Under the pieces are notes generated by a model, which ran no database searches, was not told where the DNA came from, and worked only from the letters and a program-made list of their open reading frames with translations. The translations under genes were made by a program, and so were the position numbers. A stretch of DNA of 62,986 bases, the filler included, from Dimorphilus gyrociliatus (lineage: Eukaryota; Animalia; Annelida), in assembly GCA_904063045.1 (NCBI GenBank). It is 4 parts of 4 records of this genome, joined end to end, with 100 filler letters (N's around TTAATTAATTAA, not from the genome) between each part and the next. Parts side by side here need not be neighbours in the genome. Positions count along the whole stretch, not along the records: positions 24,776 to 38,232 come from CAJFCJ010000243.1; 3 more parts are not named here. One strand, written 5' to 3'. The first letter of the stretch is position 1; each line of letters starts with the position of its first letter. Shown here one piece after another: positions 18,162-49,949 of the stretch.

Positions 18162-18216
18162 GATAATCCCATTTTTTTTCTTCAGATATTAACCCTTGGA
18201 AATTGACTATACTTGT

Positions 18217-20634: not shown

Positions 20635-21089
20635 TCAACTTAGTCCAACAACATTTATATCACATATAGCTACTTTATTTAATGGATTTTGAGACTTGTC
20701 ATAGCTTATTATCCATTTCAGATATACCAGTTTACATATTGACTGCTTACAAATACAATTATATGAACATTTTCCATCATTACTATCCAATGTACAAGAA
20801 AGAAATTCTCCACTCCATAGATCATTTCCCTTAAAATATTGATTATATGCTTTCACATAAACCATCAAATATGGTTTCATAGTTGAAAATGAACAATTAA
20901 AATTTATTCCTCTAACTTCTACTTTAATATTGAAATTATTTGGTTCATAAATTTGATATAAAAATTTTTGTTCAAATGCATCAGAAGTCAGATTAGCACA
21001 AGTATTGTATCTCTCTGGTTTTGATAAACCACCTAATTTGCATATACTATCAACCATTCTATATGAATGTATTCCAAGATTTTTGTGTT
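20635..21089 (-). CDS. Mirror copy of the unknown Cys-rich exon
   Basis: Identical translation to 15520-15942. Confidence 0.45.
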
Positions 21090-21958: not shown

Positions 21959-22834
21959 ATGAAGAGAGATATTGATTTGAAAAGTTCCAAAAGATTGGAA
22001 AGTATTACTGTTGGACTTGCCAAATCAGTCAACACTTTGAAACATGTCAATTTTACATATTGTAACATTTCGGAAGAAGGTCATCAATTGATTGAAGAAC
22101 TCTTTAGACTTTGTTCCAAATTGGAGAAAATCAATCTTGGAGGTAATAACTTTATTGAAAAAGGATTAGAGAATATTTTATGCGGACTAGTTCCATCATC
22201 AAATACTTTAAAACATCTGAATTTCAAATCGTATAATTTAAATAAAGAAATGTGTCAAAAAATTGGAAAGTTTTTAGAAGGTTGTTCCCACATTCAATCA
22301 ATAAATCTTGGACAGAATTTTCAAACAGAAAATGGATTGGCTTATATTTGCGAAGGACTTATTCACTCAAAAGAAAGTTTGAACAATGTGAACTTTGAAC
22401 GTTGCTATTTAACAGAAGCTGATTGTAAGAGTTTAGCTAATCTTTTTCAACAGTGTTCCAAAATAGAAGTAATTAATATTTCTTATAACAATCACATTGG
22501 TTGTGGATTATTATACATTTGCAAAGCACTTTTGCAATCTGTAAATAGTTTAAGGAGTCTAAATTTTGAATATTGTAATATTAATGAACAAGAATGTGGC
22601 GAAATTGGTAGTCTATTGAAAGAATGTTCCAAAATAGAGAGTATTAATCTGGCAGAAAATTTTAATATTGCAGTTAGATTTTCAGATATTTTCACGGGGC
22701 TTAAACATTCAACAGGCACTCTAAAGCATATCAATGTTCAGAATTGTAATCTTGCAGAAAGTGAATACAAGGAGTTAAGAAATCTTTTATCTAGCAATTC
22801 AGAAATTGAAATAATTGGAATGAGCAAAACATAA
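21959..22834 (+). CDS. LRR ORF, copy 3 (mirror of copy 1)
   Basis: Translation identical to 13743-14618. Confidence 0.8.
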   Translation: MKRDIDLKSSKRLESITVGLAKSVNTLKHVNFTYCNISEEGHQLIEELFRLCSKLEKINLGGNNFIEKGLENILCGLVPSSNTLKHLNFKSYNLNKEMCQKIGKFLEGCSHIQSINLGQNFQTENGLAYICEGLIHSKESLNNVNFERCYLTEADCKSLANLFQQCSKIEVINISYNNHIGCGLLYICKALLQSVNSLRSLNFEYCNINEQECGEIGSLLKECSKIESINLAENFNIAVRFSDIFTGLKHSTGTLKHINVQNCNLAESEYKELRNLLSSNSEIEIIGMSKT

Positions 22835-23712
22835 ACAAGTATAGTCAATTTCCAAGGGTTAATATATGAAGAAAAAAAATGGGATTATCATGCGATATAT
22901 TCAGTATGGACCAACTATTTATAAGTCACCTTGGAAAATTTAGAAAGATTGGTGTTTTAAATATTATTATGTTACTGAATAATATTTTTAAACTTAGTTT
23001 TAGTAGTCAAATCTCGACAAAAAGGTATCAATCCAAATGCGTTACTTGCTATTTTATTAAAATTTATATCACTAAACTATCTAGGAGTGGCGCCTAAAGA
23101 ATTGGGAAAGAATATGAGCAAACACGGTACAATTTGAGAATTTGTCAAAGATTTGTCACAACACCCAAATTAGGTCAGTAAATGATAAAAGTCTTAGCAG
23201 CATCTGATTTTGGATCAGTGATGATATCTCTTTTCATCTGTAAGAGCAAAACAAATGTTACCTCTCTCTCTCTCTTTCCCTCTTTTATTCCTTGGCTGTT
23301 CATGTTATGCTCAGGACACAAAAATATAATTGAAATAATGAAAAAACTTCACTAGAAAACATGTTTCAAGATAGAAATCATCAAACTTGGAAAGAATTGC
23401 AGTATTGTACTTGAATATTTAATATTAATATTATTTCTAAGTGTTCATCAACGTTTGTTTGGCGTCAACCTTTCTTTGTGCAGATATTTTATCAATCTTT
23501 TAATTGAAAACATATAATAAAATCTTTATATTTTGCTTAGCTTTCATTATCTTGATCTAAAATAATAATAAAGTCACTGGTTTTTATTGATTTTACGGCA
23601 AAGTTTGACTTCCATGTTCTAGTTTCAAAATAAAAGTTGCATAAAAAATCAAGAAGTAGAACATTAGAGATAAGGTTAAGTAAATTTATTGAAATTGTTT
23701 AACCAGACAAAA

Positions 23713-23917
23713 AGGGATACGACAGAAAACGTCCCCAAATGCAAGGTTTAACCCTAACCCTAGCCTAGCCCTTGTCTTTCTCTAATCTTTTTGATTACCC
23801 CTAACCCTTAGATGGAACCTAACTACAAATCAAAAGCTACTTTACTCCTGCTAACCATTTTTCAATCCAAAATGTTGCTTTCAAAAATCTCACTTGGGGA
23901 CGTTTTCTGTCAGCCCT
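23713..23917 (+). mobile_element. Family A MITE with apparent 7-bp target-site duplication
   Basis: Termini AGGGATACGACAGAAAACGTCCCC .. GGGGACGTTTTCTGTCAGCCCT, flanked by GACAAAA at 23706-23712 and 23918-23924. Confidence 0.85.
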
Positions 23918-24005
23918 GACAAAAGCTATATATTCACCATGACTTTGTTAAAATATATTAATCATATGTAAATTGAGTAATATCGCTTGTGAAATATTCT
24001 AATGT

Positions 24006-24675
24006 TTGGAAATAGGCCTCGATAACGTCAAGAAAAAAAGAAAGTTAGTGTTTGTTAATAGGACAAGAATGTCTAAGGACAAGAATGTACATTTGATATC
24101 AAATGAGAAGTTAGGTAGAGATAGTTTAAAGATTGGTATTTTACAAGACACACAATATGAAAAGATAATTAATATGAAGTATACATCTGTAGAAACGATT
24201 GATCTGAAGGAAAATAATCAGATAGACAAAGTAGAACTATCCAAATTGTTTAAACAACTCAGCCATTCATTGAATATGTTAAAAAATATTCATCTTGGCA
24301 ATTGCTTTTTAAACAAAGACCATTACAAAGAGATCGGTAATCTGATTAAAGAATGCTGAAAATTAGAATCAATAGATCTATCAAAAAATTATCAATTGGG
24401 AAATGGATTGGAAAATATTACTGATGGACTGGCCGCATCAGTCAACACTTTGAAACATGTCAATTTTACATATTGTAACATTTCGGAAGAAGGTCATCAA
24501 TGGATTAAAGAACTCTTTAGACTTTGTTCCAGACTGGAGACAATCAACCTTGGAGGAAATAATTTTATGAAAAATGGACTAGAGAATATTTTATGCGGAC
24601 TAGTTCCATCATCAAATACTTTAAAACATCTGAATTTCAAATCGTATAATTTAAATAAAGAAATGTGTCAAAAAA
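24006..24675 (+). pseudogene. LRR copy 4 with a nonsense codon, cut by the contig end
   Basis: GAA TGC TGA AAA TTA (TGA at 24357-24359) where copy 2 has GAA TGC TCA AAA TTA (ECSKL). The reading frame continues in register to the gap. Confidence 0.85.
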
Positions 24676-24775
24676 NNNNNNNNNNNNNNNNNNNNNNNNN
24701 NNNNNNNNNNNNNNNNNNNTTAATTAATTAANNNNNNNNNNNNNNNNNNNNNNNNNNNNNNNNNNNNNNNNNNNN
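24676..24775. other. Artificial contig linker
   Basis: 44 N + TTAATTAATTAA (stop codons in all six frames) + 44 N. Confidence 0.97.
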
Positions 24776-25330
24776 TAGGAAATTTTTAAAGTATCTATAT
24801 TGATCATCTAGCGGATTACAATCTTGAAAATTAATATTCTTTAAAGTATGTAATGATGAAGACAGTCCATCACAAATCATTGATAATCCTCTTCCCATTC
24901 CTTTATTATAACCAAAGTCTATACTATCAATTTTAGAACAATTTTTCAAAAATTTTCCAAAACTTTCACACTGTTTCTCAGTCAGATCGCAAGCTTTCAA
25001 TTTGATATTTTTTAAACATTTGATGATTTTAAAAGTCCATTGGAAACTTTTTCTAAACCATTTTTCAAATTTTGATTCCAGCTTAAATTTATTGTTTCTA
25101 TACCAGAACATTCATTTAACATATTTCCAATATCTTTACATTGCCTCTTACTGAGTTACAATCTTCAAATTCAATATGTTTTAAGTGTTGGATGATTTTG
25201 ATAGATTTTGACAAATATCTTGCTGAATATCTTCAAGTTTCTATTATTAGACAGAATTATAGTGTTTATATCATTACTTTTTCTTAATAATTGAATAAAA
25301 TTATCCTTAGTGCATTCATAGAAGGAAGAG
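24776..25330 (-). pseudogene. Diverged RI-like LRR fragment at the contig edge
   Basis: CLKNIKLKACDL, IDSIDFGYN and LKNINFQDCN repeats; the frame breaks upstream of 25111. Confidence 0.65.
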
Positions 25331-31642: not shown

Positions 31643-32295
31643 CCTTAGCAATACACACATACAAAAGCGTAATGCATTATATTACTTTGGATGAATGCTC
31701 AAGTAATTTTTGCATTAATAAAAAACCCATCCAGGATAGGATAGCAATGGAGCATACATTGCTCAATTATTATCAAAGAAAAGGATCTTTTTTCAGGTGG
31801 GCATCCAGATTAAAAGTCTATTATAATGCTAGTCCCAATCATTTCATGCATATACAGGTACATGTATCAGTTATTTAACTGTGATAAAGACTTAGAACTC
31901 AATGTCCACTTCAAATTCGAAACCTTTACTTTAACGTCTACTTCTACAAAAATGTAATCCTTCTAGACATTCTCTGACAATTTCTATGAAAAGGAAAAAC
32001 TTGGAATTTCTGTTACTTAGTTTGGTATTGTATTAAATCTACATTAGAAGGTAATTTGCTGTAAATAGATAATTATAATACACTTCAGTGATTACATTAT
32101 TTTTTCCATGTCCACTGCTTTTAGCTTCTATAGAAAAGTACTATTGATTATCATTAATTATTATTAGGAGAGAAATAAAGGGGAGGTGGGGAGACAGACA
32201 ACAGAAGGACAGAGTGGCAGAGTTTTGTAGTGCAGTAATTTTATTACTCCATTTTTTTCTTCCCTGTCATCAGATGAAAAACTAAGTATTTAAAA

Positions 32296-33204
32296 ATGTT
32301 TTTTGAAAAGCATTATGTAATGGCCATTTGTGTTTGTAATCAAGTTGTTGGTTTACTTCTAAACAGTAATTTAATCGTTATTCATATAATAAATAAAGAT
32401 TTATTAAGGTTAGAATATTTTGGTGTCACAGCTTTAACAATTACAGATGTTGTATCCTCAATCACTGTAATACTTTGTAGCACTTTACTTGGCAATGATA
32501 TTAATGTTTACTCTTGTCTTATCGCATTCCAATTTGTTTTTGTCATCATTGCAGTATCATCTTTTACATTGACACTAATCACTTTTGAAAAGTTTATAGC
32601 TGTTTTCAGACCATTCACCTTTCTAAAAGTTTGGACAATGAGAAGGGCGCTTATTTTACTTTCTTGTATATGGTTAGTGAGCTTTATCATTGCTTTACCT
32701 CCAGTTTTGGGATGGAATGAAATTGAAAATGCAATGGAGAATAATACTTTTGAATGTGATTCTCTTAATATTTTGTCGTATTCATACCTATACTTTTGGG
32801 GTTTAAGCGCTGTTTTACCAAATGCTATTGTCAGCTTTATATTATTTATACCTATAGCAAGTGTAATAAGGAAACACAGGCAAGCCATATCGAATGTGTC
32901 AAATGATACTAATTTAGAAACTAAAGGCTGTAGCATTCGAATTTTGACCACTTTATTAATAATCAACTGCTTTTTGTGGATTCTAGCTATTGCACTGATT
33001 ATTTATGATAACTACGAAGAACCTTCAGAGGACAATTCTGTAGAGGATCAATATTATACATTTATTTACTCATTCATTGCAATTATCCTTTCAAATTCAA
33101 CAATAAATCCTCTTGTTCATGGATATACTAATTTATCTATAAGACTTCAAACCAAGAAACTCTACATAGATTTGTTTAAAAGGATTACTTGGGCCAAAAT
33201 ATAA
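32296..33204 (+). CDS. Intronless class A GPCR, 302 aa
   Basis: Seven TM segments: GLLLN (TM1), LTITD (TM2), TFEKFIAVFRP (DRY-like), LPPVLGWN (TM4) and NSTINPLVHG (TM7). Confidence 0.88.
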   Translation: MFFEKHYVMAICVCNQVVGLLLNSNLIVIHIINKDLLRLEYFGVTALTITDVVSSITVILCSTLLGNDINVYSCLIAFQFVFVIIAVSSFTLTLITFEKFIAVFRPFTFLKVWTMRRALILLSCIWLVSFIIALPPVLGWNEIENAMENNTFECDSLNILSYSYLYFWGLSAVLPNAIVSFILFIPIASVIRKHRQAISNVSNDTNLETKGCSIRILTTLLIINCFLWILAIALIIYDNYEEPSEDNSVEDQYYTFIYSFIAIILSNSTINPLVHGYTNLSIRLQTKKLYIDLFKRITWAKI

Positions 33205-34072: not shown

Positions 34073-36077
34073 TTATATATTTATACCTAGTTGTAATAAT
34101 TCAGTAAGTCTGACAACTTCTAGTTTTGGTTCTTCAATTTGACTGTTGATTTTCATTCTGATTGATTGTGCTGCTGCTGTTTGGAACCTGCATCCTTTCC
34201 TTGTATAATAGATAAATGCCTTCTTGCCAGAATGTATGGCATATTGGTTTTGTTTTGCATCCAAAGGATTTTTCTTGATCTTGAAGAGATGCTGAGTTTG
34301 GTCACATGTACCATATCTTATGTCTTCTTTAGTGGTGTGGTAAGCATGATGAAGTATTGGATCAATTGAGAATAGGAGATCTTTATATTTGATCAGAAAT
34401 TCTTTTGAACATAATCCATTTTTTGTTATAATTGTTGTGTCACAAACTACTTGAACAGTTTTTAATTCTGTACATGTATTGAGGGTTGTTAGATCTCCTA
34501 ACCATGTACTATGGGTTCCATGTTTAGATCCAAGTATTGTTGGTAGTTGAGGTGATAGTGGTGTAAGTAGGGCTATCATCTTGTTTCTCATGATAAATTC
34601 TTTGCAGAAAAGTTGTGAAACTTGTTTAAAAACTGTTTGTAAATTTTGAAAATTTTTGTCAATATTGTTTAACAGTGCAGCTGTTCTTATAGCATCTTTT
34701 ATATTTATTTGGTGTGATTCTGGAATCTCTATGCTTTCTAATTGTTTCCTCTTCCATTTGTGATTTATTGGTTTTCTTTGTAAAAGTGTATATTTTCCAT
34801 TTTTGGTATGAATTTGAAATTGTGTATCTTTTGGGCTTTGATACCAAATATTCATGTTTGGGATTGGGTTGAAAGTAACTGGTTTTTCGTCCAATTCAAA
34901 CTCTTGTGATCTTAATAGTCTGGCAGGTTTTAGCTTTGTTGTTTTCAGCATTTTTAGTATGTATTTGTTGTGAATATCCCAGATGTCTGGAGAAATAATT
35001 TCTTTGACAAACCAAGTCCTCACTAATGGTGTTGCATGATTTTTTATCAGCATATGGTAGGTTTTGTCAGCATCTCTATACCAATCATTATATGTTAAAA
35101 TATCTTGTATTTCTGTGACATTGGCCTTTCTTAGTGATGATTTCTTTCCAATATATTTCTCCAATCTAGTAACTTCTTTATTTGAAATGATCTTGTATTT
35201 TGTATCCTCTATTAATTTATTGTCAGCAGAATTGGAATTTGTAAGATCAGTTCTAAGTAAGTCATATTCTTTCTGGGGTACCAATACTCTGGTACCAGGA
35301 CCACCATATCCTTTGATATATCTGTCTTGGTAAGGTAAATCCATTATTGCATAGTTGGGGCAGGAAAAATATCCTCCAAGTTTTACACATTCCACATTAT
35401 GGGAAACTATTTTCCATGGTGAAACATGGCCTAAAAGACTTTGACCTTTTTCTGGATTAAATATAATGATTGAATCCAAAGTTCTACAAAATAATAGAAC
35501 AGTCTTCTAAATATTCCAAATTTGTGGTTATTTTATCTTGACTTGGATTCCAATAAGCCTTGCCAATTTGAAGGATTGTTGTAAATTCTTCCACCACTGT
35601 GGTTCTTGGCCATTTGTAATTTGGTCCTTTGTTTTCATTATACATAAGAAGTTTGCCTTTTTCAATTAGGTTTTGTCCATTTAAGGTTTTGTGTGTGTAT
35701 AGCATTGTTCTGCATTGTTTTTCACTTAAGGCAAGTGTTTGTTTTTCAATTCTGTGTTTCTTTGCTCCAAAAAAGTAATGAGTGTAGAAATTGATTCTTC
35801 TTTTCACTAAACACTTGACAGCTTGAATTGCCAAATTGTCAGCTTTAATTTCATAGATGTTAGCTACAATTTTGATCATTTGTTTAGTTTCAAAGGTACA
35901 TACTGGTTCATCTGCTAAATCAAATGATTGGTGTACTTGTTGTCCTTGACAAAACTGTACTGATGGTAGCATTCTTACAGTTATGTTTGCTTTTGTTATG
36001 GATACATTTGCTTGGACCAAGTTTAAACAGCATATTGCTAACAGTGTATAAATTATTGATCCTCTGATAGGAAGCAT
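34073..36077 (-). CDS. env: Envelope-like glycoprotein, putative class III fusion protein (chuvirus G / herpesvirus gB-like); frameshift near 35484, no C-terminal TM anchor
   Basis: Internal ATG 36077 opens the signal peptide MLPIRGSIIYTLLAICCLNLVQA. Cys pattern QFCQG..FDLADEPVC..VKCLVKRR..YFFGAKKH..LSEKQCRTM, and later LFCKE..LSPQL..WLGDLTTLNTC..CSKEF. Homology is inferred from memory of family motifs. Confidence 0.7.
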
Positions 36078-37688
36078 TCCACCATTTGTTTGGTGTTTCC
36101 TTACTGTCACTGTGTTAACTGTTATAGGTTGTTTGTTAGCTAGTCTTAGTCTACTAGCACGATAGAATTTTCTTTTATCTGCCAATATTTGTAATTCATA
36201 CAAACATTTTGTAGTATCTGTAGCAGTTACAAGATATGGTCCACTCCATTTGCTTGTATTTATTCTGTTCATTCCTTGACCAATGTTTTCATTTCTTATG
36301 TGTACCCAATCACCAATTTTGTAAGTTGGAGGTTTTCTTGTAATAGCTTTATTAACTCTATCTCTATATTCATTCTTTTTTAGAACAGATTTGCAAAGTG
36401 CTGTTGCTCTAATTTCTTCAAGTTCATGTTTTCTATCAAATAAGAATTTTGTTGTTGGTTCTAATCTTGGAACTACCATTAACAGGTCTAAAACATTTCT
36501 ATTCTTCAATCCAAATAATATTTCATGTGGGGTTTTGCCAGTGCTTCCAACTGGAATTTGATTTAAACATGTCTGAATTAATGGTAACTGTCTTGTCCAA
36601 TCTATCAATTGTTCCATAACTACATGTTTATGTAGTGCTCTACGAATTTCCAAATTCTTTCTTTCTACCATTCCATTACTTTGGCTATGGAATGCTGTTG
36701 TTTTAATTTTTCGTATTCCCATTGATGTCACCATTTCTGTAAAGATTTCCCCAAGAAAATTCCTTCCTTGATCTGTGAGAATTTCTTCTGGGATACCAAA
36801 TATTGGGAAATAGTTGAAAAACAAATGTTTAGAAATCTCCTCAACTGTTTGAGTTTTTAGAGGGAATATGTTGGTAAATCTGGACATGTGGTCTATAATG
36901 ACAAGTATATACTTGTAAGAATCATGTCCAGTCAGAGGTCCCATTATATCCATAGCTATTCTTTGCATTGGTAAAGTTGGGTGAGGTGTTTCAACCAACA
37001 GATGTTTGTTGCCTGGTGCTCTTAATTGCTCACAAAATTCACAACCCTTTGTGTGATCTTTAATTGTTTTCTTTAGCTTGGGGTGCCAGAAAGCTTGCTC
37101 CAAAGTGTGAATTGTTATGTCTACACCATAGTACTCAAATAGTTGATGTTGATGAATTTGTCCAAGTAAGTTGGTTAGAGTTGATAGTGGAATTACAAGT
37201 AGTGGTTGACAGCCATTTAGATACCATACAAGATCTTCTTTTACAAACATAGATTCAATAAAGTTTCCATATTCATTCAAAGACCCATTATCAATGTTTT
37301 CTCCTTCCAATTTGTCTACAACTTTCATTAGTGGAGTATCTAATACTTGTTCTCTATAGAAGTTTATTTCAACTGGTGTGATTTTTAGTTTCATAATCTG
37401 GGCTTGGATTTCAGTTCTGTCTTCATCATAATCATTGTCTAGATTGTCATCTAAACAATCATCTAATTCTTCTAAGTCCTCTGTATCAATATAAAAGCAT
37501 TTAAGCATATCCTTTCTTTCTGCTAATTGGGGAACTGTATTGCCATTTTGTTTTTCTTCATTTAATCTTTCCTTAAGTAAATTACGAAAATCAATTACTT
37601 CATCAGTTTCACCAATTCTTGATATCCAGTCTGCTCTATTAGTTCTTCCTGGTATGTATATTATTTCAAATCCATTTTTTTTGTCCAT
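36078..37688 (-). CDS. Gypsy integrase (RNase H tail, acidic linker, zinc-binding domain, DDE core, GPY/F), in frame with Env
   Basis: FEIIYIPGRTNRADWISR; HQHQ..CEFC; IAMDIMGPL; ILTDQGRNF; QSNGMVERKN; KWSGPYLV. Confidence 0.92.
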
Positions 37689-38232
37689 TTCAGTTTTTCT
37701 GTCTTTTGGTGTACTTTTAATAATTCTCTCAAAGGTTTTGTGATTTTTGCAAAATCTTTAACAAATCTTCTATAATAACCACAAAATGCCACAAAACTCA
37801 ACAGAGTATTTGCAAACATAGGTAATTTGGCATCTTTTATTTTCTGAATCTTTTCAGGATCAGTTTCAATACCATTCTGTGTAATTCTATGACCAAGGAA
37901 TTGAACTGATTCTTGTAAGAATGCACATTTGCTCAGTTTAATTCTAAAGTCTTTTTCCTTGATTCTTTCCATAAGTTTCTATAGAGCTACAAAGTGTTCT
38001 TCCAATGTTTTGGTAAAAACTATAATATCATCCATATAATTAATGCAGAAGTTTTCCAATCCATTAATAACAAAATTTGCCATGATATAGCTGAAGTGTG
38101 AAGGTGCATTTGCCAAACCAAATGGCATGGGGTTGAATTCAAATAAACCAAATGGTGTAATAAAAGCAGTTTTCTCCTTATCTTCTTCTTTGATTGGAAT
38201 ATGATGAAATGCACTTGTTAAATCCAATATAG
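37689..38232 (-). pseudogene. pol: Reverse transcriptase of the Gypsy element (in-frame TAG at 37979-37981; RNase H missing)
   Basis: DLTSAFHHIP..YMDDIIVF..FVAL*KLMERIKE..FCGYYRRFVKDFAKITKPLRELLK..KLKW, then a direct jump to the RH-end motif. Confidence 0.88.
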
Positions 38233-38332
38233 NNNNNNNNNNNNNNNNNNNNNNNNNNNNNNNNNNNNNNNNNNNNTTAATTAATTAANNNNNNNNNNNN
38301 NNNNNNNNNNNNNNNNNNNNNNNNNNNNNNNN
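38233..38332. other. Artificial contig linker
   Basis: 44 N + TTAATTAATTAA + 44 N. Confidence 0.97.
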
Positions 38333-38517
38333 TTGAACTCTTCTTCGGTCATTTCACTTAACTGTAGGTCTGTTAGATCACCAGCATGGAGAGTCCATCT
38401 CTCTTTTTGTAGCATTATTTCTGCTTCTATAAGTTCTGCGTTCTTCTTTCTCGCGTTTTTCTTTGGTGTTTCTGCAGATTCTGTAGTACTTAAGTTCAAA
38501 ATTACTGTCAAAAACAT
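38333..38517 (-). CDS. Small signal-peptide protein, family S1 copy 1 (cut by the contig end)
   Basis: MFLTVILNLS..QKERWTLHAGDLTD..EMTEEEF, a clear paralogue of 41154-41519. Confidence 0.65.
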
Positions 38518-39299
38518 ACGAATAGGAATAATTTTTATATTTATTCAAAAAAAATCAAAATGATCAAATAAAGAATATTTAGATTTAAATCGACCTAAAA
38601 ATCAAGAATAAATCAAATACAACTTATTTAATATCTAAAATTTAAGTATTTTTGAAATAAATAGTATAGATTAGGCTTTAGTTGGTTATTATAAATACGT
38701 TAAACTTAATCAATATTTAGGAAAGAATCAAAAACTCAAGCAATATAGAGATATTAACTTAGTTTAAGTCATCTCTCAATTTTATCTTAAAATATACTTT
38801 AATTTGAATGTTTTTATCTTCTTTTTCGTTTAGGACAAAGAAAAAGAATTAAATCCTTAAATTAAGAGTGATTCTAAGTAAAATAGATTTTACACTAGCT
38901 TATAAAACTAACAAAACAGCTGTTAAGCAAAGGATAGTAATAAAACTATTAAATCAACTAAATCTTTTTTCAAGAATACAATATACTAAACAATCATGAT
39001 TCTAGTTTAATATATAATTTTTTAGAAAGATCAAGTATTAATAATAAAATGATTGAATTTATAAAAAATTGTTATTATTGTTTTAACTCTGAAAACCCAA
39101 ACGACCAGAAGAAAAATATGTTGATCTTTTATATGTTTTCTACCTAAAATCATCTCTTTTATAAATTAAATATTATTTAGTTTTTGTAAAATATAACACT
39201 TTTAAAAACATTTTCATATGTCAATAATTCCAGAAAAGATAGGATTATTAACAAATAACAAGCTATAAAAAAACATCAAGATATAGGTAATATAACAGC

Positions 39300-39870
39300 G
39301 AAAGTTGGAATCGTGGTTATTTAATGATACGGGTCAAATTTAATTTTTGTCAGAGGTTGTTAAATCATTAATAACCTCAGCTATAATACTGGTTTATACA
39401 TTTAATTAGAAGACTGACAAAAATATTTGTAAGAAGTACTTGTCTAATGAAAGGTTATATGATTAAATAAAGTAGTAAAAACATTATTTTTAATGAAAAT
39501 ACTTCTGATAGAAACACATCGCAGGTGTGTGAATAAAGTACTTAACGAGTTTTAGAATGACATTATATTTGTAAATTACAAGTAATGTAGGGCTGTTTTA
39601 TGTTGTAATTCAAAAGCTAACAAGTAAAGAATTTAATACCAGCTGCTAAACATAGTGGAAGTATTTTCATTGCTAGGGATGCAATATCATATGGAAGTGT
39701 TAAGAAATACTTATTAATTGATGGGGAAATAGATGATATTAAATATATTTAAAGATATTTTAGGAGGTACCCTTCTTTCTCTTGTACAAGATAACGATCC
39801 TAAGCATACATAATGGTTAACAACCAAGTTCTTTAATGAGAATAAAATTAGAGTATTACTATGGTCATCT
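39300..39870 (+). mobile_element. Highly decayed Tc1/mariner transposase remnant
   Basis: Fragments HSGSIF..AISYGSV..IDGEID..KYI and LVQDNDPKHT (QDNDPKH is a Tc1 motif), with many stops. Confidence 0.6.
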
Positions 39871-41153
39871 AAATACTCTAAAAATAATCAAATCTCTGAA
39901 TTCATATACAACAAAAGTTAATTATGACTAAAAAAGAAATTGGTTAATTTTAACTATTAAATCATGTAATGTGCTTTTTATATTTATACCAGAAGACTTG
40001 AAGTATTATATTTGGTTAAATGTGGACTAACGAGTAAAAGTTATTTCCAATATTTTCGTCTTGGATAATTTTTCTTTGATTAACCACCTATAACTGTTTT
40101 ATGTAATAAATCCTTTTATCAGTAAATATTAAACAGATAATAAAACTTTAATTGATTACTTTTTTAAAATAACGTATACAAAAAAAATGTCTAAGTATAT
40201 AAATATATAAAAGTGTTTATAGAAAAGGAATAGACTGTTTTTCTCTCACAAAATTAATAATTTTTTCTAAGGTTATTAGTTTTTGGTTAAGAAATTATAG
40301 AGACTTCTATTATAAATAAAGAATTGCTATTAAATCCTAGAAATTTTACTTCCTATTATTAAAAATATACTTTTTAAAAGAATTTGATATGATTAACCAA
40401 AGCTTGTTAAAACAAAGTATAATACTGATTGTTAATAGAATGTGTATGTGATAAGATTTATCAAAATACTATTTAAAGTTGAGTATGATACAGAAAAAGA
40501 TATGATAAGTGATTTCGATGTAGAATTTATTGTTAATAAAAATATAGAGAAAGACTATTTATATAAAAAGGAGAATATCAGCATTTAACAATAAACCATA
40601 AGAGTAATTATAAAGATAATATAATGTATTTAATACAAGAATTATTAAAGGTAAATTAAAAAACAGATATTAAAAATTTACAAATGTTTTGCATGTTTAT
40701 TAAAATCTATGATAAAAAAATATAAGAAAATGATTATTTAAAAGTTATAGTTAATTTTTATTGAGATTTTATTTTGATGGGTTGAAATTTATTTTGATAT
40801 ACTCTACTTTTTTGTATAGATTGACATTTTATACATTTCTAAGCTACCTAAGTTATTGATATATTTTTGAATATTGAATAGATCTGATGAATTCGAAATG
40901 ATATAATTTACTAAAATTTAAATTAATTGCTAAAATAGACTTTTGGAAAATTATATTTCTATAATAAATCTATTATTTCCTAAAATGAAAATAAAATTCT
41001 AAAAATTTAGATCTTGAATTTTTATATAAACTTTTAGTATTTTGTATTTGATTCATATTATTATTATTATTAGATGATTTTTTTTATTGAATATTTTTTA
41101 TTTGATCGTTTAAATTAGATTTTAACTTAAATATAAAAGTACACCTTAATCCT

Positions 41154-41519
41154 ATGTTTTTGATACTAATTTTATATTTAAGTAGTTTAAAATCTACACA
41201 AGCACCAAAGAGAAACATAAGAAAAAGCGATTCAGAACTAACAGAAGCTGAGAAGGTAAAACAGAAAGAGAGATGGAAACTTCATGCTGATGACTTAACA
41301 GATGAACAAATTGATGAAATGACTAAAGAAGAGTTTGATGATAGAATATCCTTTGATCCACATTTATATGACAGAATGTATTGCCGTGGAACAACAATAG
41401 GAAGTGATGAAGAGCCTAATCTTGAACAAACTCAAGAATGTGACAGAATCCCTCCATTTGTTAAAACACCGGAAAGTATGAAACGAGCTGAGAAATTACC
41501 AGAGTATAGGGACTTTTAG
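41154..41519 (+). CDS. Small charged signal-peptide protein, family S1 copy 2 (121 aa)
   Basis: Hydrophobic N-terminus MFLILILYLSSLKS and shared core KQKERWKLHADDLTDEQIDEMTKEEF; intronless. Confidence 0.7.
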   Translation: MFLILILYLSSLKSTQAPKRNIRKSDSELTEAEKVKQKERWKLHADDLTDEQIDEMTKEEFDDRISFDPHLYDRMYCRGTTIGSDEEPNLEQTQECDRIPPFVKTPESMKRAEKLPEYRDF

Positions 41520-41760
41520 AAAGTAAAGATGATGATATAGAATTTGATTGTGAACAACCAAAAAATAATACTAAAAAGGAAGATAACCGTCGGCCATTAG
41601 AAGAAGTAATATATAATATGGATTCAAGAGATGCTCAAAGCTGTGTTATTTTATAATTATTAAATGAACTTTGAACTATTTTATTTTTCTTCAATTAAAG
41701 TGATTTTCTATATAATATTACGATTTAATTATTGCTTATTTTTGTTTACAATCAAGTTTT

Positions 41761-41826
41761 AAGTAAATAAATAAGTATTTTTAAATGAATAAATAAGTGT
41801 TTTTAAGTAAATGAATAAGTGTTTTT
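41761..41826 (+). repeat. 22-bp minisatellite, three copies
   Basis: AAGTAAATAAATAAGTATTTTT / AAATGAATAAATAAGTGTTTTT / AAGTAAATGAATAAGTGTTTTT. Confidence 0.8.
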
Positions 41827-43757
41827 GAATAAATATTTAAAATAAAATATACATAATACAAATTTGGTCAGGAAAAAAAATACATTTTTATAAATTTTCA
41901 ACTTTTTTATATTTAAATTTATTTTACATAAAAAACCTGTAAATTAACCGAAGTGATTCAATAAATATAAAGTATTGATATTGCAATATTTGAGTATTTT
42001 AAATTATTTTAATAAAAATATAAAATAAAAAAAGTCTGTTCTTTTATTATTATCGAATTTTCCTGGTTCGCTTAAAAAGTTTCCATATCGGGTTTTTAAC
42101 AAAATATATACTTTATTTAAATATAATAAGGGATGGTATGTTTTCTAGCGACAGAACTACACATTTCAAATTCTAAATATTTTCCCATAAAAGATCTCTT
42201 ATGTATCTTTTAAAACAGGTTATTAGCCGCATTTATCTCTTCTAAAAAATGATTGTATTATTATTAAGAAATTAAATATAAAGTTTTCAAAATAAAATAA
42301 ATAGTATGTTACTATAGTTCTATATGTAGTGATATTATAACGAAATATAATAATATTAATATATTTCCATTGATAGAAATGATTGATTTTATAATTAAAG
42401 CTTTCAAAGCATCCTAAATAATAATAATAAGATTTTATATAAATTACAAAACCTTATTTTTATTAAAAAGTACAAAATTCCTTTCTCATATAGAACAAGT
42501 TGCAAAAAATAGTAAAACCACCATTAGTAGTAAAAAATATTTCTCTTATTATTATGATAAGAGAAAACAGGGAAATTAACAACTCCAGTGATTAGTTTTT
42601 GTGTAGAATAACTATGAAATTTGATTTATTAAACTTAAGAAGTGGTGAGCTTCCTTTATTGTTGTATATTCTTAGAATATAATTAATATTTTTAATAAAC
42701 TTTAAAACCAACTTTTCCCATCTATAAAAATACACATACCTATAACGTAATAAAACACGTGTTTTAAAAAGTTGTAAATTATGTATTTTTGTTGTATCCA
42801 ATCTTAAAATAATCTTTTTTTATTTCGCTGATTTCAGATTAACATTTCCTAAAATACAATTTTTATTTCTTCTAAAGAGGAAACTTTTTTTGCTAATATA
42901 AGCTTTACAAGTAAACAAATTTTCCAAGTATATGAATAAAATTTGAAATTTTTATATTTTCCGATAAAATAAAAATACCTAAACACTTTACTGTGTATTT
43001 ATTTAATTATCTTAAGTCCCTAAATATTTTACATCGAGTTTCTATCTTCAATTTACTAATAAATTTACTGTTATAAACTATTTACCCTTTATAGTAAATA
43101 TATAAAAAAGAAAAAAATTTATAAACAATAATGATATCCTCTAAAGTCTATTAAATCAATTAGAATAAATATACACTATGTTAATGTTCGGTTAAAGTTT
43201 ATTATTACTTAATTTATTTATAACAATAATTTAGTATTTCGTAAAAATTATGTGATTATTATATTTTAAATAAAATTATTTTTTTAAAAAACATGTGATA
43301 TTAAAAAACTTAATTTTTTATAATTTAAAAAGAATTATAATAATTTAGTATTTCTTTATATTTAATTTTTAATCTATTTACTTTTTAAAATTTTATTAAC
43401 TGAAAAATTTAAATTGAACTTTAGCACTGAAATAATTTAATATAATCAAATACTAAAACAAATTTTTATATTCTTTTAAAATCACATTATTCTTTACATA
43501 AAACCTAATTAAATATTAAATAAAATAAAGTTTACAACAAATCAATTGGTTGTATTAAAAATATAGTTTTTAATAGAAAAAGAATTTTTTTGATTTTAAT
43601 TAAAACAGTGTATTTTAAAAATCAACTTAGATTAGATTGTTTATAGAATGTAAACTGAATAATAGATTTATATTTGAAGTAGTTATAAAATTAAATTTAA
43701 AAAATCTTAATAAATAGAAATAATAAGTAAATGAAGTATTAAAATATTAAAAAATTT

Positions 43758-44743
43758 GGTAAAAGGGATTTTTGGGGTACAGCTATATTTGCTTCTTAAA
43801 TAAAAATAAAGATATTTTTAGATTTAAAACGTTTTTTTATTAATTTTCATCCGAGCCAAAATTTTCAAAAAAGGATTTTCCGTTTTTAGAAATAAATAGT
43901 CTTCGATATATGATTTTATATTTGGTTTTATGTTACTCCCTCTTGTTTTTAAATAGTATTTGAGCCATTTCCATTGATTTTCTATGTTCTGAGTATGTTT
44001 TTCTTCGTTTTTAGGGTCTACAAATACATCTTTATGTTTAATAGTAAAATGACCATATTCAAGTAACTTCACTCCATTATAGCCTTTCCACTCATCAGTT
44101 ATGATAACTGAATATTCTTCTACATTCTTTATTATTATTTTAGATAGTGTTTCTTCATCTCTTTTTGTGACAACCTCAAAGAAACACTCTTTTGTAGCTC
44201 TACAGAAACCACCTACTACCCATATCTGCTCTATTAGTCTTCCTTTGTTATTTTTCCTTTTACTGACGGCACTCTCATCAATTTCAATAATTCTACCGCC
44301 GCCCCCTATTTTTTTTTCTGAAAAGTCATCATATCGTCTACGAATAATTTTTAAAATACTATTATATAATGTTTTGGTGATGTTATATTCATTATAAATT
44401 TGGATTGGTGGTGTTTTAATGCTCCATTCATATATTATAAAAATGATTTTTTTAACGAGATTTAATATTGTCGAAATAAGACATTTACGTATCGAAACTT
44501 TTATATTATTACATTTTCTCGTCTTAAAAAGCCAAATGAAACCATCTATGTTATGATGTGGTACCAAAACCATCGTCTTTTTACAGCTTTTACACAAAAA
44601 TTTTTTCTTCAATAAACCCAAATCCATCATCCATGATAAAAATCTGCTCGGATCAAATGAAATAGTAAATAATTCCAATCTCGAAAATACCATTGGGGTA
44701 AATATTAAGCAAATATAGCTGTACCCCAAAAATCCTTTTTACC
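43758..44743 (-). mobile_element. Merlin (ISXO2/IS1595-like) DNA transposon 1, 986 bp
   Basis: About 37-bp TIRs GGTAAAA(G/A)GGATTTTTGGGGTACAGCTATATTTGCTT enclose the transposase. No matching TSD. Confidence 0.88.
43824..44693 (-). CDS. Merlin/ISXO2-like DDE transposase (289 aa from ATG 44693)
   Basis: CKSC zinc ribbon, IEIDES, WVVGG, IITDEWKGY and HTQNIENQWKWLK; CCCC immediately upstream of the ATG. Confidence 0.88.
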   Translation of the reverse strand: MVFSRLELFTISFDPSRFLSWMMDLGLLKKKFLCKSCKKTMVLVPHHNIDGFIWLFKTRKCNNIKVSIRKCLISTILNLVKKIIFIIYEWSIKTPPIQIYNEYNITKTLYNSILKIIRRRYDDFSEKKIGGGGRIIEIDESAVSKRKNNKGRLIEQIWVVGGFCRATKECFFEVVTKRDEETLSKIIIKNVEEYSVIITDEWKGYNGVKLLEYGHFTIKHKDVFVDPKNEEKHTQNIENQWKWLKYYLKTRGSNIKPNIKSYIEDYLFLKTENPFLKILARMKINKKTF

Positions 44744-45161
44744 AAAATATGTTCTTTGAGTTTGGACTGGAATGTCCTCTTGTCCATATTGGATTGGTTC
44801 TTCACTTTTTTAAAATAATTATATTTTAGTATGCTTATAGTTTGACCTCCTATCTGTGCCTTCAGATATGGAAATAGAATTTTCGTAGGTTCTTTTTCTA
44901 ATCTATCAAAATATTTTGTCTTCACCTTTCTTAGTCTTTCTTTTTCATCGTATAAATTCATTTCTTGTGAGATTTTTTTGTATTTTACGTCCTCGTGAAT
45001 AAAAATTCTTGCATAATCTATACAAAACGTTCTTTTTTGAAAAAAATATGGCGCTCTTTTTCGTTTATGATAAACTTTACCATCAAATATATCACTATCG
45101 TGTGGCATGTAACCTAAGTTGTTATAAAAAGTGATAATAGTAAATATATTTTTATAATCAT
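44744..45161 (-). pseudogene. 5' half of an S2-family signal-peptide gene, frameshifted and cut by Merlin 1
   Basis: Nearly collinear with 49540-49949, including the upstream region. A 1-nt loss in the signal peptide gives ACT TAG, and similarity ends exactly at the Merlin TIR (EHIL|). Confidence 0.88.
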
Positions 45162-45418
45162 TTTAAGGGTAATTTGATTGTTCATTTTGGGACATTTTTA
45201 CAAGTTAGAAATATTTTTAATAGATCATAGGTATCTCTTTATATTTTAAATATTATAATTTAAATAAATTTATTATTATTATTATTAAATTTGGTAACAT
45301 GGAACTTAGGATCCTTTTCGATCAAAAATTGATTTTTTTAGAAATATGGAAAGATCGAAGAGAAGCGGATAAAAATAAAATTTTAAAAAAAATTTATAAC
45401 ATTTCTAAAGTATTCCTT

Positions 45419-46385
45419 GGTAAAATTGCTTTCAGAGTCCCTTAAAATTTAATATTATAGGAAAATAAAAATATAATTAAGTTCAAAATGACATTTTAAT
45501 AATTTCATCCGAGTTGAAATGTCTAAAAATGGATTTTCTTTTTAGAAATAAATAATCGTTTATATGTTCGTCTTTGTAATTATTTATATTACTACCGCGA
45601 CTTTTAGATAATACTTTAACCATCTCCATTGATTTTCAATGTTTTGTGTATGGATTTCTGATATATTTTTGTGTTTAAAATTGGTTTTTATGTCTAATTG
45701 TTAAATGCCCATAATCATAATATATCCTTTCCAGAGTCAGTTATAATAATGGGAAGTTCTTCTACATGTTTATTGATAATTCTTTGAAGAGTTAATGAAC
45801 CTCTTTTTTCTACAACTTCAAAAAAGCATCTTCTTGTGGTTCTACAAAGACCACCAATCACCCACAATTGCTCATTACACCTTCCTACATTATATTTTCT
45901 CTTAGTCACAGCACTTTCATTAATCTCTATGATTAAACCAGGATCTCCTATTTTAGGTCAACTGTCAGATGTAATTTTACTTCTAATTAGTGATATGACT
46001 GTTTTATAAAGTTTATAGTTTACACCGTATTGTTCAAATATATCCATAATTGGAGTTTTTATGGACCATTCAAAGATTATAAAAATTATTTTTTAGTGAT
46101 ACTTTTATTAAAGTGAAAACATAGCCATCATGAATTGAAACCTTACTTTTACCACACTTCTTTGATTTACACATCCAAATTAAGCGATCTATATTATGAT
46201 GTGCTACTGTATTTCTATCAATTTTACATTTTTTACAGAATGATTTTTTTTTCAAAATATTTAATTTAGACAACCAAGAAAAAAAAGTGCTCGGACCAAT
46301 CATTTTTTCTTGCAATCGCAACCTTGTTATTAACATTAGGGGGTAATATAATTCAATTTTAAGGGGCCTGAAAGCAGTTTTTACG
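45419..46385 (-). mobile_element. Merlin DNA transposon 2, decayed
   Basis: TIRs GGTAAAATTGCTTTCAGAGTCCCTTAAAAT / ATTTTAAGGGGCCTGAAAGCAGTTTTTAC. Broken ORFs with CKKC, WMCKSKKC, KRKYNVGR and LWVIGG. Confidence 0.82.
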
Positions 46386-46414
46386 TATTATTATAGCTCT
46401 TTTTAATTAAAAAT

Positions 46415-48130
46415 TGTTGGGTATACTTAAAGTACATAAATTCTTCCTATTAAATTAGTATAAAAAAAATTTTTTTTTATTATTTTTGACTCCTTTTTGT
46501 TGATATAGGTAAGGTATAATTAAGTAAATGGTAAATTGATAGGGATTTTTCTGTCCCCCAAAAAAAATAAATAGGAATTTTTACCATAATTTTTTTTTGT
46601 GTATACACTTCCAGAATTAAGTACATAAATTTTTTAAAAAGGATTTTTGTTAAAAATTTTTTGATAAAACTTATTTATTCGATTCTCTCGTATAACCCAT
46701 GGCTAGAATACCAAATATCACTACTTTAGGCGATAAAAGCGATATTATTGACCTTTTATGTAATGGAACAATACCTAATAATTTTAAAGATGAACCAAAA
46801 AGACAGTTCATTAAAAAACGAGAAGGTTTGTCTATAGAGATTCTATTTTATCAATCGAACAGAATAACACAAAAAGGGAGTATATTTGTGATTTTGAAAT
46901 CGAAAGAAAAAAAATATTATCAAGCGAATACATTTACCAGGACACCTTTGTCTAACTAAAATGAAAGAGTTAATTGATAATATATATATCAATATAAAGA
47001 CAAATGATTTAACAGAATATATAAATAGTTGTGAAGGCTGTCAAAGAGAAGTAAACTTGAATGTTCAACGACCTATAACACCAATTCTTGTATTTAATGT
47101 ACATGAACGATTACAAGCAGATATTGTTGATATGAGCACTTATTCACAGTCAAATGGAGATTATAAATATGTTTTAAATTTGATTGATTGTTTCTCAAAG
47201 TTTGTTTTTAGCTATAAATTACACAATAAAAGCTCTGAATCTGTATTGGAAATTTTAGAAATATATTTTATTCAGAAGGTCCTTGGAAACTCTCCATACA
47301 GATAATGGAAGAGAGTTTGTCAATCAAAGAGTAAGAATATGCTCTACTTTCAATGTAGAACATTTAACTGGACGCTCTAGACACCCACAATCACAAGGAG
47401 TTGTGGAAGATTTAACAGGATATTTAAGCTAAGACTAAGAGAGGCTTTAAGTGGGTCTACTAATTGGATTAGTATTCAAGATGATATTGTATACCAATAC
47501 AATAATAGTAAACATAGTGCCACTGGATTCAACCCCTTTGTGCTATTTAAAAATGTAGACCCTAATAATTTCAACAATAACAATATTTTAGCACTTCAGA
47601 CTGTAAGAAATAATTATATTAATTATGTAAGTGGCTATATCAATGAGTATAACAGTAGAGCAGCGAATAATAACCCAATTTTAGAGGTGATAGGTGCTTA
47701 CTTGCGAGGGATTTCGACAGTAACATTAATACTAGACGACTTCCCTAACATCATTATATCATGAAGAAATATATACTGTTATATCAGTCTATAATGACGA
47801 TAAATTTCGATAAAGATGAAGATAATAATATAAAGATGGCTTCGAAATATGTTTTGAAACGTCTCATTGAATAAATGAGTTTTATCAAAAAATTTTTAAC
47901 AAAAATCCTTTTTAAAAAATTTATGTACTTAATTCTGGAAGTGTATACACAAAAAAAATTATGGTAAAAATTCCTATTTATTTTTTTGGGGGGACAGAAA
48001 AATCCCTATCAATTTACCATGTACTTAATTATACCCTTACCTATATCAACAAAAAGGGTTCAAAAATAATAAAAAAAAAATTTTATACTAATTTAATAGG
48101 AAAAGTTTATGTACTTAATTATACCCAACA
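46415..48130 (+). mobile_element. Ginger/TDD-like DNA transposon with retroviral-type integrase and about 265-bp TIRs; frameshifted
   Basis: 46415-46680 is the reverse complement of 47869-48130, with TGT..ACA termini. Coding fragments: CEGC, LQADIVDM, YKYVLNLIDCFSKF, TDNGREF and RHPQSQGVVE. No RT. Confidence 0.82.
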
Positions 48131-48720
48131 ATTATTTTCCTATAGATAAAGTTGAACACTTTCGTTCCTTTTTAATTAGATTATATTTTATTAAAATCTC
48201 TATTGTCGTTTTCTCATCTACCGTCTCTAAAACAAAACTTCTATATTTCATTAAGGGGATAAATAAATTTTTTGAATAAATAAGACTTTTATTATAAAAC
48301 AACAAAAAAAATCTCCCCCCCATTCTTCAATTTTATCTTGATCAAACCTCCCATCATTTTTGATCGAAGGGGAACATACTTCAACCTTGTCCTTTTTTTA
48401 CTATAAAAAAGACAAAAACTGCTGATGAATAAAAAAGAAGATTTATCGTAATAAAAAGTAGTAAAACAACAATAATAACTTATATATGGACAGGTTATAA
48501 TTACATCCAATCACTTAATATGAAACACTCGAAAATAAATCATAAAAAATACTTTGTAGATCCAAGAATCGTAAAATTAACACACAATTGGTAGAAAACA
48601 AATGGAAATATCTAAAAGACTCCCTTAAAGCAAAGGATCTAATATTTAAAAAAAAATTAAAAGTTATATAATGGAATATAGCTATATCATCAAGAAAAAA
48701 GGTATTTTACTGAATATTAG
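48131..48720. mobile_element. Fragments of further Merlin elements
   Basis: Minus strand MKYRSFVLETVDEKTTIEILIKYNLIKKERKC (N-terminus). Plus strand near 48525-48640 HSKINHKKYFVDP and TQLVENKWKYLK (C-terminal motifs). Confidence 0.6.
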
Positions 48721-48854
48721 AACTATTTAAAGTAAACTAATGCTATATCGTTTTTTGATACCTTTTTTCATTTTTTTTTGGGACCGTTAATACGACTTTT
48801 TATTGAAATATGCATTTATTATAAAAATTAAACTGAATAGAATTTAATGTTCAA

Positions 48855-49949
48855 TCACATCACAGAACAAGAACTGTTATTATTGCGATTTTCATATAAA
48901 TTATCGGTTACCTTACGAATTAGTTTGTAATAAACTGTATAATTTTTATAATACCAAGTCTTAAAAGAACCTCCAATAACCATTTCATAGCAGATATCAA
49001 AAGTAAATTCTCTTAACGTATCTTTCCATAAATCTTGATAGTGCTTATCGATTTTGCTTAAAGCAAGTTTATCATCTTTAATATCTCCAATATAATTAAC
49101 AATCACAGCATCAAATATGATTGAATAAACATCGTAGTACATCCCATAACATGTTATAAGAAGAGTGTAAAACGTTATATTATAAGATAAAAGTTCCTCA
49201 AAGGTACGTATTTTTTTATTTTCTTTATTTTGTTCTCTTAAAAATATACTATTAGTATAGTCTTGATATTCTTTGGCCCAAACCCTCTGAAACTTTTGTG
49301 AGACTTTCAGTAGTTCATCTTTTAGTTTAAAAATGAAGGTTTTATATGCAATTTTATCATTGAAAAAAGCTTCAATTTTTCGTAAAAAGTATCTTTTGAA
49401 ATATTTTAGGTAAAAATGTTTTTTTGCTGTAAAGAAGAAATCGTATTCTTCGTTATATTCGTTGCTGATTTCTTTTAAAACATTTTTTTCTATTTCTATA
49501 ACTTTTAATATAAAGGTTTCAAATTCATTCAAAATATGTTCTTTGAGTTTGGACTGGAATGTACTCTTGTCCATATTGGATTGATTCTTCACTTTTTTAA
49601 AATAATTATTTCCAACTATGCTTATAGTTTGGCCTCCTATCTGTGCCTTTAGATATGGAAACAGAACTTTCGTAGGTTCTTTTTCTAATCTATCAAAATA
49701 TTTTGTCTTTACCTTTCTTAGTCTTTCTTTTTCATCGTATAAATTCATTTCTTGTGAGATTTTTTTGCATTTTACGTCCTTGTGAATAAAAATTCTTGCA
49801 TAATCTATACAAAATTTTCTTTCTTGGAAAAAACGTGGCACCTTCTTTTGTTTATGATAAACTTTACCATCAAATATATCACTATCGTGTGGCATGTAAC
49901 CTAAAATTGTAATAAAAAGTGATAATAGTAAATATATTTTTATAATCAT
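48855..49949 (-). CDS. Intact S2-family secreted protein (364 aa from ATG 49949), unknown function
   Basis: Signal peptide MIIKIYLLLSLFITILG; intronless; rich in Lys, Tyr and Phe; paralogue of the disrupted copy at 44744-45161. Confidence 0.78.
   Translation of the reverse strand: MIIKIYLLLSLFITILGYMPHDSDIFDGKVYHKQKKVPRFFQERKFCIDYARIFIHKDVKCKKISQEMNLYDEKERLRKVKTKYFDRLEKEPTKVLFPYLKAQIGGQTISIVGNNYFKKVKNQSNMDKSTFQSKLKEHILNEFETFILKVIEIEKNVLKEISNEYNEEYDFFFTAKKHFYLKYFKRYFLRKIEAFFNDKIAYKTFIFKLKDELLKVSQKFQRVWAKEYQDYTNSIFLREQNKENKKIRTFEELLSYNITFYTLLITCYGMYYDVYSIIFDAVIVNYIGDIKDDKLALSKIDKHYQDLWKDTLREFTFDICYEMVIGGSFKTWYYKNYTVYYKLIRKVTDNLYENRNNNSSCSVM

What the first reader, a model, noticed from the sequence alone, without database searches (positions are those of the whole stretch)
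34073..37688. Gypsy retrotransposon with a putative class III (gB/chuvirus-like) envelope fused in frame to integrase
Seen: the 734-aa integrase ORF has no stop after the GPY motif. It continues into a signal peptide (internal ATG 36077) and a Cys-patterned ectodomain, which carries on for 468 aa after one frameshift at about 35484. Established: Gypsy-group env genes (errantiviruses) are usually a separate ORF related to baculovirus F, whereas gB-like or chuvirus-like glycoproteins are known from BEL/Pao elements (nematode Tas, mosquito Anakin). Inferred: the motifs YC/FC..DL.D...C, KC......FFG.K..LS..QCR.M and LFC..L.P..GD...L.TC match class III fusogens. This would be an independent env capture by a Ty3/Gypsy lineage, expressed as a Pol-Env polyprotein or from the internal ATG, i.e. 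a candidate undescribed enveloped endogenous virus of an invertebrate.
Basis: partly seen in the sequence, partly recalled or inferred. Interest (0 to 1): 0.82.

Follow-up and report, generated by a model that had tools for sequence, protein, structure and literature searches.

The report
Broken gypsy retrotransposon with herpes-like envelope
This is a damaged copy of a likely multi-copy jumping gene in an invertebrate animal; its integrase runs without a stop into a protein predicted to fold like the herpesvirus membrane-fusion protein, a real feature but of a kind already catalogued across animals.

Summary
A Ty3/gypsy integrase reads in frame past GPY into a signal-like stretch and a Cys-patterned ectodomain, which a frame break splits into two ORFs. 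The env piece is predicted to fold as a class III fusogen: all 9 PDB Foldseek hits at E<=0.001 are herpes gB, and a homolog passes Pfam's rhabdovirus-G fusion-domain cut-off. Public runs show the in-frame junction is shared by the dominant copies. The env break, the missing RNase H and the 3' truncation are private to this copy. The novelty claim fails. Chary and Hayashi (PMC13524379) list 221 HSV/gB-type env-bearing Ty3/gypsy elements among 1,512; their tunicate ENVs share this motif pattern. An unrelated intact single-ORF Gag-Pol-class III Env gypsy protein also turned up (P0051). The scan earlier noted related single-ORF Gag-Env-Pol layouts on other DNA. One open point: a second subfamily lacks the internal ATG but keeps the hydrophobic stretch, so Env is likely made from a Pol-Env polyprotein or a spliced RNA. 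Verdict: new member of a known kind, low interest.

The parts
37664..38232 (-). Reverse transcriptase C-terminal half (YMDD motif) and start of the connection region; one internal stop at 37981-37979; cut upstream by the contig linker
   Evidence: Best PDB hits are Ty3 RT 4ol8 (E 5e-18) and Ty3 Gag-Pol 7q5b; weak RVT_1 hit, E 0.0024, below cut-off; sequence
37617..37676 (-). RNase H tail only; most of the domain is missing from this copy
   Evidence: Tail motif at 37670; contigs of X5 and X6 carry about 0.4 kb more at this place, with loose ends there in X2 and X3
36150..37199 (-). Integrase: H2C2 zinc finger, DDE core (36953, 36776, 36668), GPY module (36242)
   Evidence: Pfam rve and Integrase_H2C2; PFV integrase and Ty3 hits; coordinates
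36009..36077 (-). Signal-peptide-like hydrophobic stretch, in frame with the integrase
   Evidence: Hydropathy; N-terminal helix in the model; no signal-peptide predictor was run
35484..36008 (-). Env N-terminal ectodomain with a predicted class III fusion domain; putative fusion loops at HYFFG (35780) and YKWP (35618)
   Evidence: AlphaFold model and fold searches; homolog P0002 hits PF00974 above cut-off; loop assignment is inferred
35484..35506 (-). Frame break in env, private to this copy
   Evidence: ORF overlap; high-depth contigs in 4 of 4 runs do not share it; P0001 and P0002 run across it
34073..35506 (-). Env continuation (central helix with LFC motif, GD motif, Cys-rich domain), truncated near 34080 before any transmembrane anchor
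   Evidence: BLASTP to P0002 (E 9e-14) and P0001 (E 3e-36); loose ends at 34080 in X2, X3 and X5; no C-terminal hydrophobic stretch

Best explanation
This is a dead, truncated copy of a likely multi-copy Ty3/gypsy LTR retrotransposon family whose pol gene continues in frame into an envelope gene predicted to be an HSV/gB-type class III fusogen. Shown: the domain order, the in-frame junction in the dominant copies, and the private damage to this copy. Predicted from models: the class III fold. Inferred: intact copies likely make a Pol-Env (or Gag-Pol-Env) polyprotein. The hydrophobic stretch after GPY would act as an internal signal that sends Env into the ER while Pol stays in the cytosol, and signal peptidase would release Env. 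The trimeric Env would let virus-like particles enter neighbouring or germ-line cells, as known for Drosophila errantiviruses. My split for how Env is made: polyprotein 0.55, spliced env RNA 0.3, internal ATG alone 0.15.
For: Gypsy identity: Ty3 RT is the best PDB hit. 61 of 62 long integrase relatives carry the RT_RNaseH families PF17917 or PF17919. Class III fold, window's own piece: 9 of 9 PDB Foldseek hits at E<=0.001 are herpes gB; VIA ranks 1-6 are class III proteins, best Z 7.8, rmsd 3.9, 117 aligned; BFVD gives herpes, chu-like and rhabdovirus glycoproteins. Homolog P0002: VIA ranks 1-11 are class III, best Z 8.9; PF00974 at 25.6 bits against a cut-off of 22. Family-wide fusion: single contigs in X3 and X1 span 35940 to about 36265 with 1 difference (missense, read by hand) and no gap; X2 and X5 contigs tile the same stretch. 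A second subfamily (56 differences in 324 nt, no gap) keeps the hydrophobic stretch, but two listed substitutions remove the ATG. Repetition: X2 depth is about 5,800-7,100 on the dominant contigs against 80-145 on flank contigs. Precedent: P0051 is one 2,439-aa ORF with Gag, protease, RT, RNase H, integrase, chromo-like domain, signal-like stretch, homologous env and C-terminal hydrophobic stretch.
Against: The models are weak overall: mean pLDDT 58.9 and 46.4, with confidence mainly in the fusion domain. VIA Z under 8 for the window piece is within the tool's background range, and secretins follow at Z 5.1-5.5. The window's env pieces hit no fusogen family in Pfam, the PDB sequences or the ESM Atlas. 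No transmembrane anchor, gag, protease or LTR is in the window, and no contig spans the whole element. Only 33 of the second subfamily's 56 differences were displayed, so a stop or a new ATG among the other 23 is not excluded. A minor variant has a frame-shifting indel at GPY (X2 607 of 27,194; X5 20 of 84). Contig depth is not a copy number. The polyprotein step has no expression evidence.
Confidence: 0.85

Rival explanations
1. Env is made from a spliced subgenomic RNA whose acceptor lies near the end of the integrase, as is known for Drosophila gypsy and retroviruses (recalled). The open frame across the junction would then be incidental.
For: A CTAAC followed by TAACAG lies about 45-65 nt upstream of ATG 36077 (seen). 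Loss of the ATG in the second subfamily is also compatible with an upstream start brought in by splicing.
Against: The candidate acceptor has no pyrimidine tract and was not scored. The frame stays open across the junction in two subfamilies about 17% apart, as far as the table shows.
Confidence: 0.3
2. This lineage captured its class III glycoprotein independently and recently, from a chu-like or rhabdo-like virus.
For: The integrase is a long, unplaced branch with at most 32% identity among 65 rows and is not sister to P0051 (quick tree). Only 4 env homologs were found among 1.84 billion representatives. Viral glycoproteins head the BFVD list.
Against: Identity to viral glycoproteins is only 7-20%. 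The THYFFG-(A/S)-K ... WP-TT pattern is shared with catalogued tunicate errantivirus ENVs (compared by eye). The env is homologous to that of another gypsy polyprotein, P0051 (profile E about 1e-8 over 66 proteins). PMC13524379 argues for ancient acquisition.
Confidence: 0.1
3. The fusion is an accident of this copy or of the assembly: a lost stop, or a viral fragment inserted behind the integrase.
For: The copy is damaged at four places, and the window is made of linked contigs.
Against: Dominant contigs from two studies cross the junction with at most one substitution and no gap. Depth is similar over integrase and env.
Confidence: 0.03

Closest known systems
'Ancient errantiviruses' with HSV/gB-type ENV (Chary and Hayashi, eLife 2026, PMC13524379), e.g. 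the Tunicata C3 group
   Same: Ty3/gypsy Pol followed by a class III gB-like Env in invertebrates, in multiple copies; shared fusion-domain motif pattern with the tunicate ENVs
   Different: The main text does not discuss in-frame Pol-Env fusion ('fused', 'polyprotein', 'in-frame', 'single ORF': 0 occurrences each). Supplement labels such as 'GAG-POL-ENV_RT' beside 'POL_RT' suggest single-ORF cases (my inference from labels). Two motifs of this protein (YKWPRT, GYGGPGT) had no match in the 7 supplements, where long cells are cut. The catalogue gives coordinates rather than sequences, so this family may be among the 221.
P0051, an unnamed ENA protein: intact single-ORF Gag-Pol-class III Env Ty3/gypsy polyprotein
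   Same: Env fused in frame behind integrase through an internal signal-like stretch; env homologous to this one
   Different: Has a chromo-like domain between integrase and signal; integrase 25% identical and not sister in the quick tree
Belpaoviridae with in-frame env: Atlas virus (PMC9094657); mosquito BEL elements with chuvirus-like gB (Anakin; Tas recalled)
   Same: Atlas encodes a single Gag-Pol-Env polyprotein without stops or introns; mosquito BEL elements carry a gB-like Env
   Different: BEL/Pao Pol rather than gypsy; Atlas Env is class II; the mosquito BEL ENV sequences lack the YFFG ... WP pattern (by eye)
Herpesvirus gB, rhabdovirus G and GP64 (class III fusogens)
   Same: Predicted fusion-domain fold
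   Different: Only about 4-14% identity; the match covers domains I-II only

Membership tests
Ty3/gypsy (Metaviridae) | RT and integrase of Ty3/gypsy type, in the order RT-RNase H-IN | tested here: met
   order seen
Ty3/gypsy (Metaviridae) | LTRs, primer-binding site, gag and protease | tested here: inconclusive
   None in this copy: contig ends at 38232 and the copy is truncated near 34080; no genome held
Belpaoviridae (BEL/Pao) | BEL-type Pol (Peptidase_A17 and DUF5641 domains; names recalled) | tested here: not met
   No such Pfam hit in ORF A at E<=1; 1 of 62 integrase relatives carries PF18701, beside gypsy domains; best RT hit is Ty3
Belpaoviridae (BEL/Pao) | Grouping with BEL/Pao in an RT or integrase tree | not tested
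   The tree had no BEL/Pao rows
HSV/gB-type errantivirus ENV | Class III fusion domain with fusion loops (domains I-II) | tested here: met
   (predicted models, moderate confidence)
HSV/gB-type errantivirus ENV | Signal peptide before the ectodomain | tested here: inconclusive
   Hydrophobic stretch and helix are present; no dedicated predictor was available
HSV/gB-type errantivirus ENV | Domains III-V and trimeric hairpin | tested here: inconclusive
   ORF B matches P0002 and, weakly, the P0051 env (E 0.007); that part of the P0002 model has pLDDT under 50
HSV/gB-type errantivirus ENV | C-terminal transmembrane anchor | tested here: inconclusive
   Absent from this truncated copy; other copies continue past 34080, but that part was not read
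HSV/gB-type errantivirus ENV | Multiple near-identical genomic copies | tested here: inconclusive
   Contig depth is tens of times that of the flanks, and contigs are 95-100% alike; depth is not a copy number, and no intact copy was seen whole
Infectious endogenous virus | Env expression, particles, membrane fusion, cell-to-cell spread | not testable with these tools
   Needs RNA, protein and cell data from the host

The most novel reading that the evidence does not exclude
A deep-branching gypsy lineage, without close relatives in the databases, in which the class III Env has no start codon of its own and can be made only as the tail of the Pol polyprotein. It coexists with an env-deleted derivative in the same host. 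It would be a clean natural case of obligatory Pol-Env co-translation in a gB-type invertebrate endogenous virus, an expression mode the survey paper does not discuss.
Probability: 0.35. Interest if true: 0.45.

Novelty: new member of a known kind. Interest (0 to 1): 0.25.

Why it matters
It adds one divergent family to a recently described, widespread class of invertebrate retrotransposons with gB-like envelopes. How these elements make Env and enter cells is unknown (PMC13524379, Discussion). A family with two subfamilies, one lacking the internal ATG, and an env-deleted derivative gives a natural handle on that question. The copy in this window is itself broken.

Tried and rejected
No whole genome is held, so intact copies and LTRs could not be sought. 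The word-based protein search with the env part found nothing. The A1 profile returned only 2 of its own members. The ESM Atlas gave only rotavirus VP7 at 0.82 or lower, which is chance level. PDB sequence searches with the two env pieces were blank apart from one chance hit at E 2.4. The search for related loci found no relatives in viral contigs or metagenome contigs, and alignment A1 had no usable stretch. No RNA holder was listed among the runs, which says nothing about expression. The integrase tree is the quick version: the careful search did not finish, the window's row is a long branch, and there was no BEL/Pao outgroup. No RT tree was built. PMC10309623 (Cer1), of which I saw passages only, gave nothing on Pol-Env fusion. 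The scan's look-up for look-alike stretches in other genomes was empty. Five paper searches gave no listing devoted to in-frame Pol-Env fusion in gypsy elements. I saw listings only for most papers, and subscription journals are missing. The paper's figures and GitHub sequences could not be seen and may show such fusions. The host species was not determined.

Full report
Observation. On the minus strand, ORF A (37757-35484, 757 aa stop to stop, 734 aa from ATG 37688) holds an integrase with H2C2 and rve domains and a GPY module at 36242. It runs on without a stop through ATG 36077, a hydrophobic stretch and a Cys-patterned region. The 249 codons after GPY are stop-free, against 0 of 5000 shuffles. 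ORF B (35506-34073, 477 aa) starts in another frame at the end of A. Two natural proteins, P0001 and P0002, match both pieces in order, so A and B are one broken gene.

Anatomy of this copy. Upstream lies half an RT with a stop at 37981-37979, cut at 38232 by a contig linker. Only the tail of RNase H remains. The copy ends near 34080 with no transmembrane stretch, and no LTR-like repeat flanks it. Four public DNA runs from three studies were laid on it; the best holders may include the source sample. The high-depth contigs do not share the env frame break (4 of 4 runs) or the RT stop. Contigs in X5 and X6 carry about 0.4 kb more where RNase H is missing. Contigs in X2, X3 and X5 continue past 34080. 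In X2 the dominant contigs have depth about 5,800-7,100, against 80-145 for flank contigs. This is consistent with tens of copies, though depth is not a copy number, and no contig spans the whole element.

Is the fusion real? A second, narrower lay (four runs, two studies) shows single contigs in X3 and X1 spanning GPY to beyond the signal with one missense difference and no gap. Contigs in X2 and X5 tile the same stretch. A second subfamily differs at 56 of 324 positions without a gap. Of those differences, 33 were displayed. Read by hand, none makes a stop, the hydrophobic stretch is kept, and two remove the ATG at 36077. The other 23 were not shown. A minor variant has a frame-shifting indel at GPY.

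Is it class III? The window's env pieces hit no fusogen by sequence. A full HMMER scan found 4 homologs among 1.84 billion representatives. One, P0002, passes the Pfam cut-off for the rhabdovirus G fusion domain. A model of the window's own N-terminal piece has mean pLDDT 58.9, mostly 70-84 in the fusion domain. It gives herpes gB for all 9 Foldseek PDB hits at E<=0.001, and herpes, chu-like and rhabdovirus glycoproteins in BFVD. VIA ranks 1-6 are class III proteins with Z up to 7.8, within background range and with secretins close behind. The P0002 model (mean pLDDT 46.4) gives 82 Foldseek hits at E<=0.001, and all listed rows are class III. Its VIA ranks 1-11 are class III, with Z up to 8.9. 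The rest of the ectodomain was not modelled with confidence.

Is it gypsy? The RT fragment's best solved relatives are Ty3 RT, and the integrase hits foamy virus and Ty3. Of 62 long integrase relatives, 61 carry the RT_RNaseH families PF17917 or PF17919, and one also has PF18701. A quick integrase tree of 65 rows leaves the window's row on a long branch (at most 32% identity), unplaced, with no BEL/Pao outgroup.

Comparison with what is known. I read the abstract, sections 5 (part 1), 6, 9 (part 1), 14 and 22, keyword passages and parts of the supplements of Chary and Hayashi, PMC13524379. They list 1,512 env-bearing Ty3/gypsy elements, 221 of them with HSV/gB-type ENV, across invertebrate phyla. 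Their tunicate C3 ENV sequences share the THYFFG-(A/S)-K ... WP-TT pattern (by eye). The main text does not discuss in-frame Pol-Env fusion, but supplement labels suggest single-ORF elements. Independently, 1 of the 62 long relatives, P0051, is an intact single ORF from Gag to a homologous class III env with a C-terminal hydrophobic stretch. P0039 seems to do the same with another env type. Single Gag-Pol-Env polyproteins are also described for the belpaovirus Atlas (PMC9094657, passages). Two earlier notes of this scan describe related Gag-Env-Pol single-ORF elements on other DNA (not checked here).

How it likely works. Intact copies would transpose as ordinary gypsy elements. Env is most likely translated as the tail of Pol, entering the ER through the internal signal and freed by signal peptidase (0.55). 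A spliced env RNA (0.3) and the internal ATG alone (0.15) are the alternatives. Particle entry into other cells is inferred from Drosophila errantiviruses and is untested for gB-type elements.

Verdict. The feature is real and the class III reading is right, but the kind is published and the fusion has parallels. New member of a known kind; interest 0.25. Whether this very family is among the 221 catalogued could not be checked.

Noticed in passing
window 24676-24775, 38233-38332, 51137-51236: Three identical 100-nt linkers of Ns around TTAATTAATTAA: the window is four joined contigs, and the element is cut by one of them.
   Followed up: yes
joint 34358-36243 in runs X2, X3, X5: A derivative lacking most of env, joined near GPY (depth 66, 41, 193; only 43 letters on the short side). 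Possibly an env-less subfamily, as abundant as the env-bearing one in X3 and X5.
   Followed up: partly
window 38333-51136: This contig is more AT-rich (GC 23.9%, down to 16.5% locally) and has duplicated ORFs, two of which were scanned and had no Pfam hit (48855-49988 and 41106-41519). It may come from another organism, such as a parasite.
   Followed up: partly
window 43755-44746: ISXO2-like DDE transposase (PF12762) between 40-nt inverted repeats; looks like a Merlin-type DNA transposon (name recalled).
   Followed up: partly
window 46430-48120: Integrase fragments (H2C2 and rve) between inverted repeats of 50-130 nt; possibly a Ginger-like DNA element (name recalled).
   Followed up: no
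window 12018-25111: Cluster of NLR-like LRR genes with a 3,576-nt perfect inverted duplication (13061-16636 and 19941-23516): a recent duplication or an assembly artefact.
   Followed up: no
window 55618-57331, 32278-33204, 10562-11590: Animal GPCR genes: one LRR-7TM receptor with upstream Cys-rich LDL-like repeats (seen by eye) and two rhodopsin-family ORFs. They show the host is an animal.
   Followed up: partly
P0039 (2,339 aa; cluster with P0067, P0068): Another intact single-ORF Gag-Pol gypsy protein with an in-frame tail: signal-like stretch, basic cleavage-like site followed by a hydrophobic peptide, and a second hydrophobic stretch. It looks like an F-type env by eye; no Pfam hit in the tail.
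   Followed up: partly
window 17808-18188: Tc1/mariner-like transposase fragment (motif recalled).
   Followed up: no
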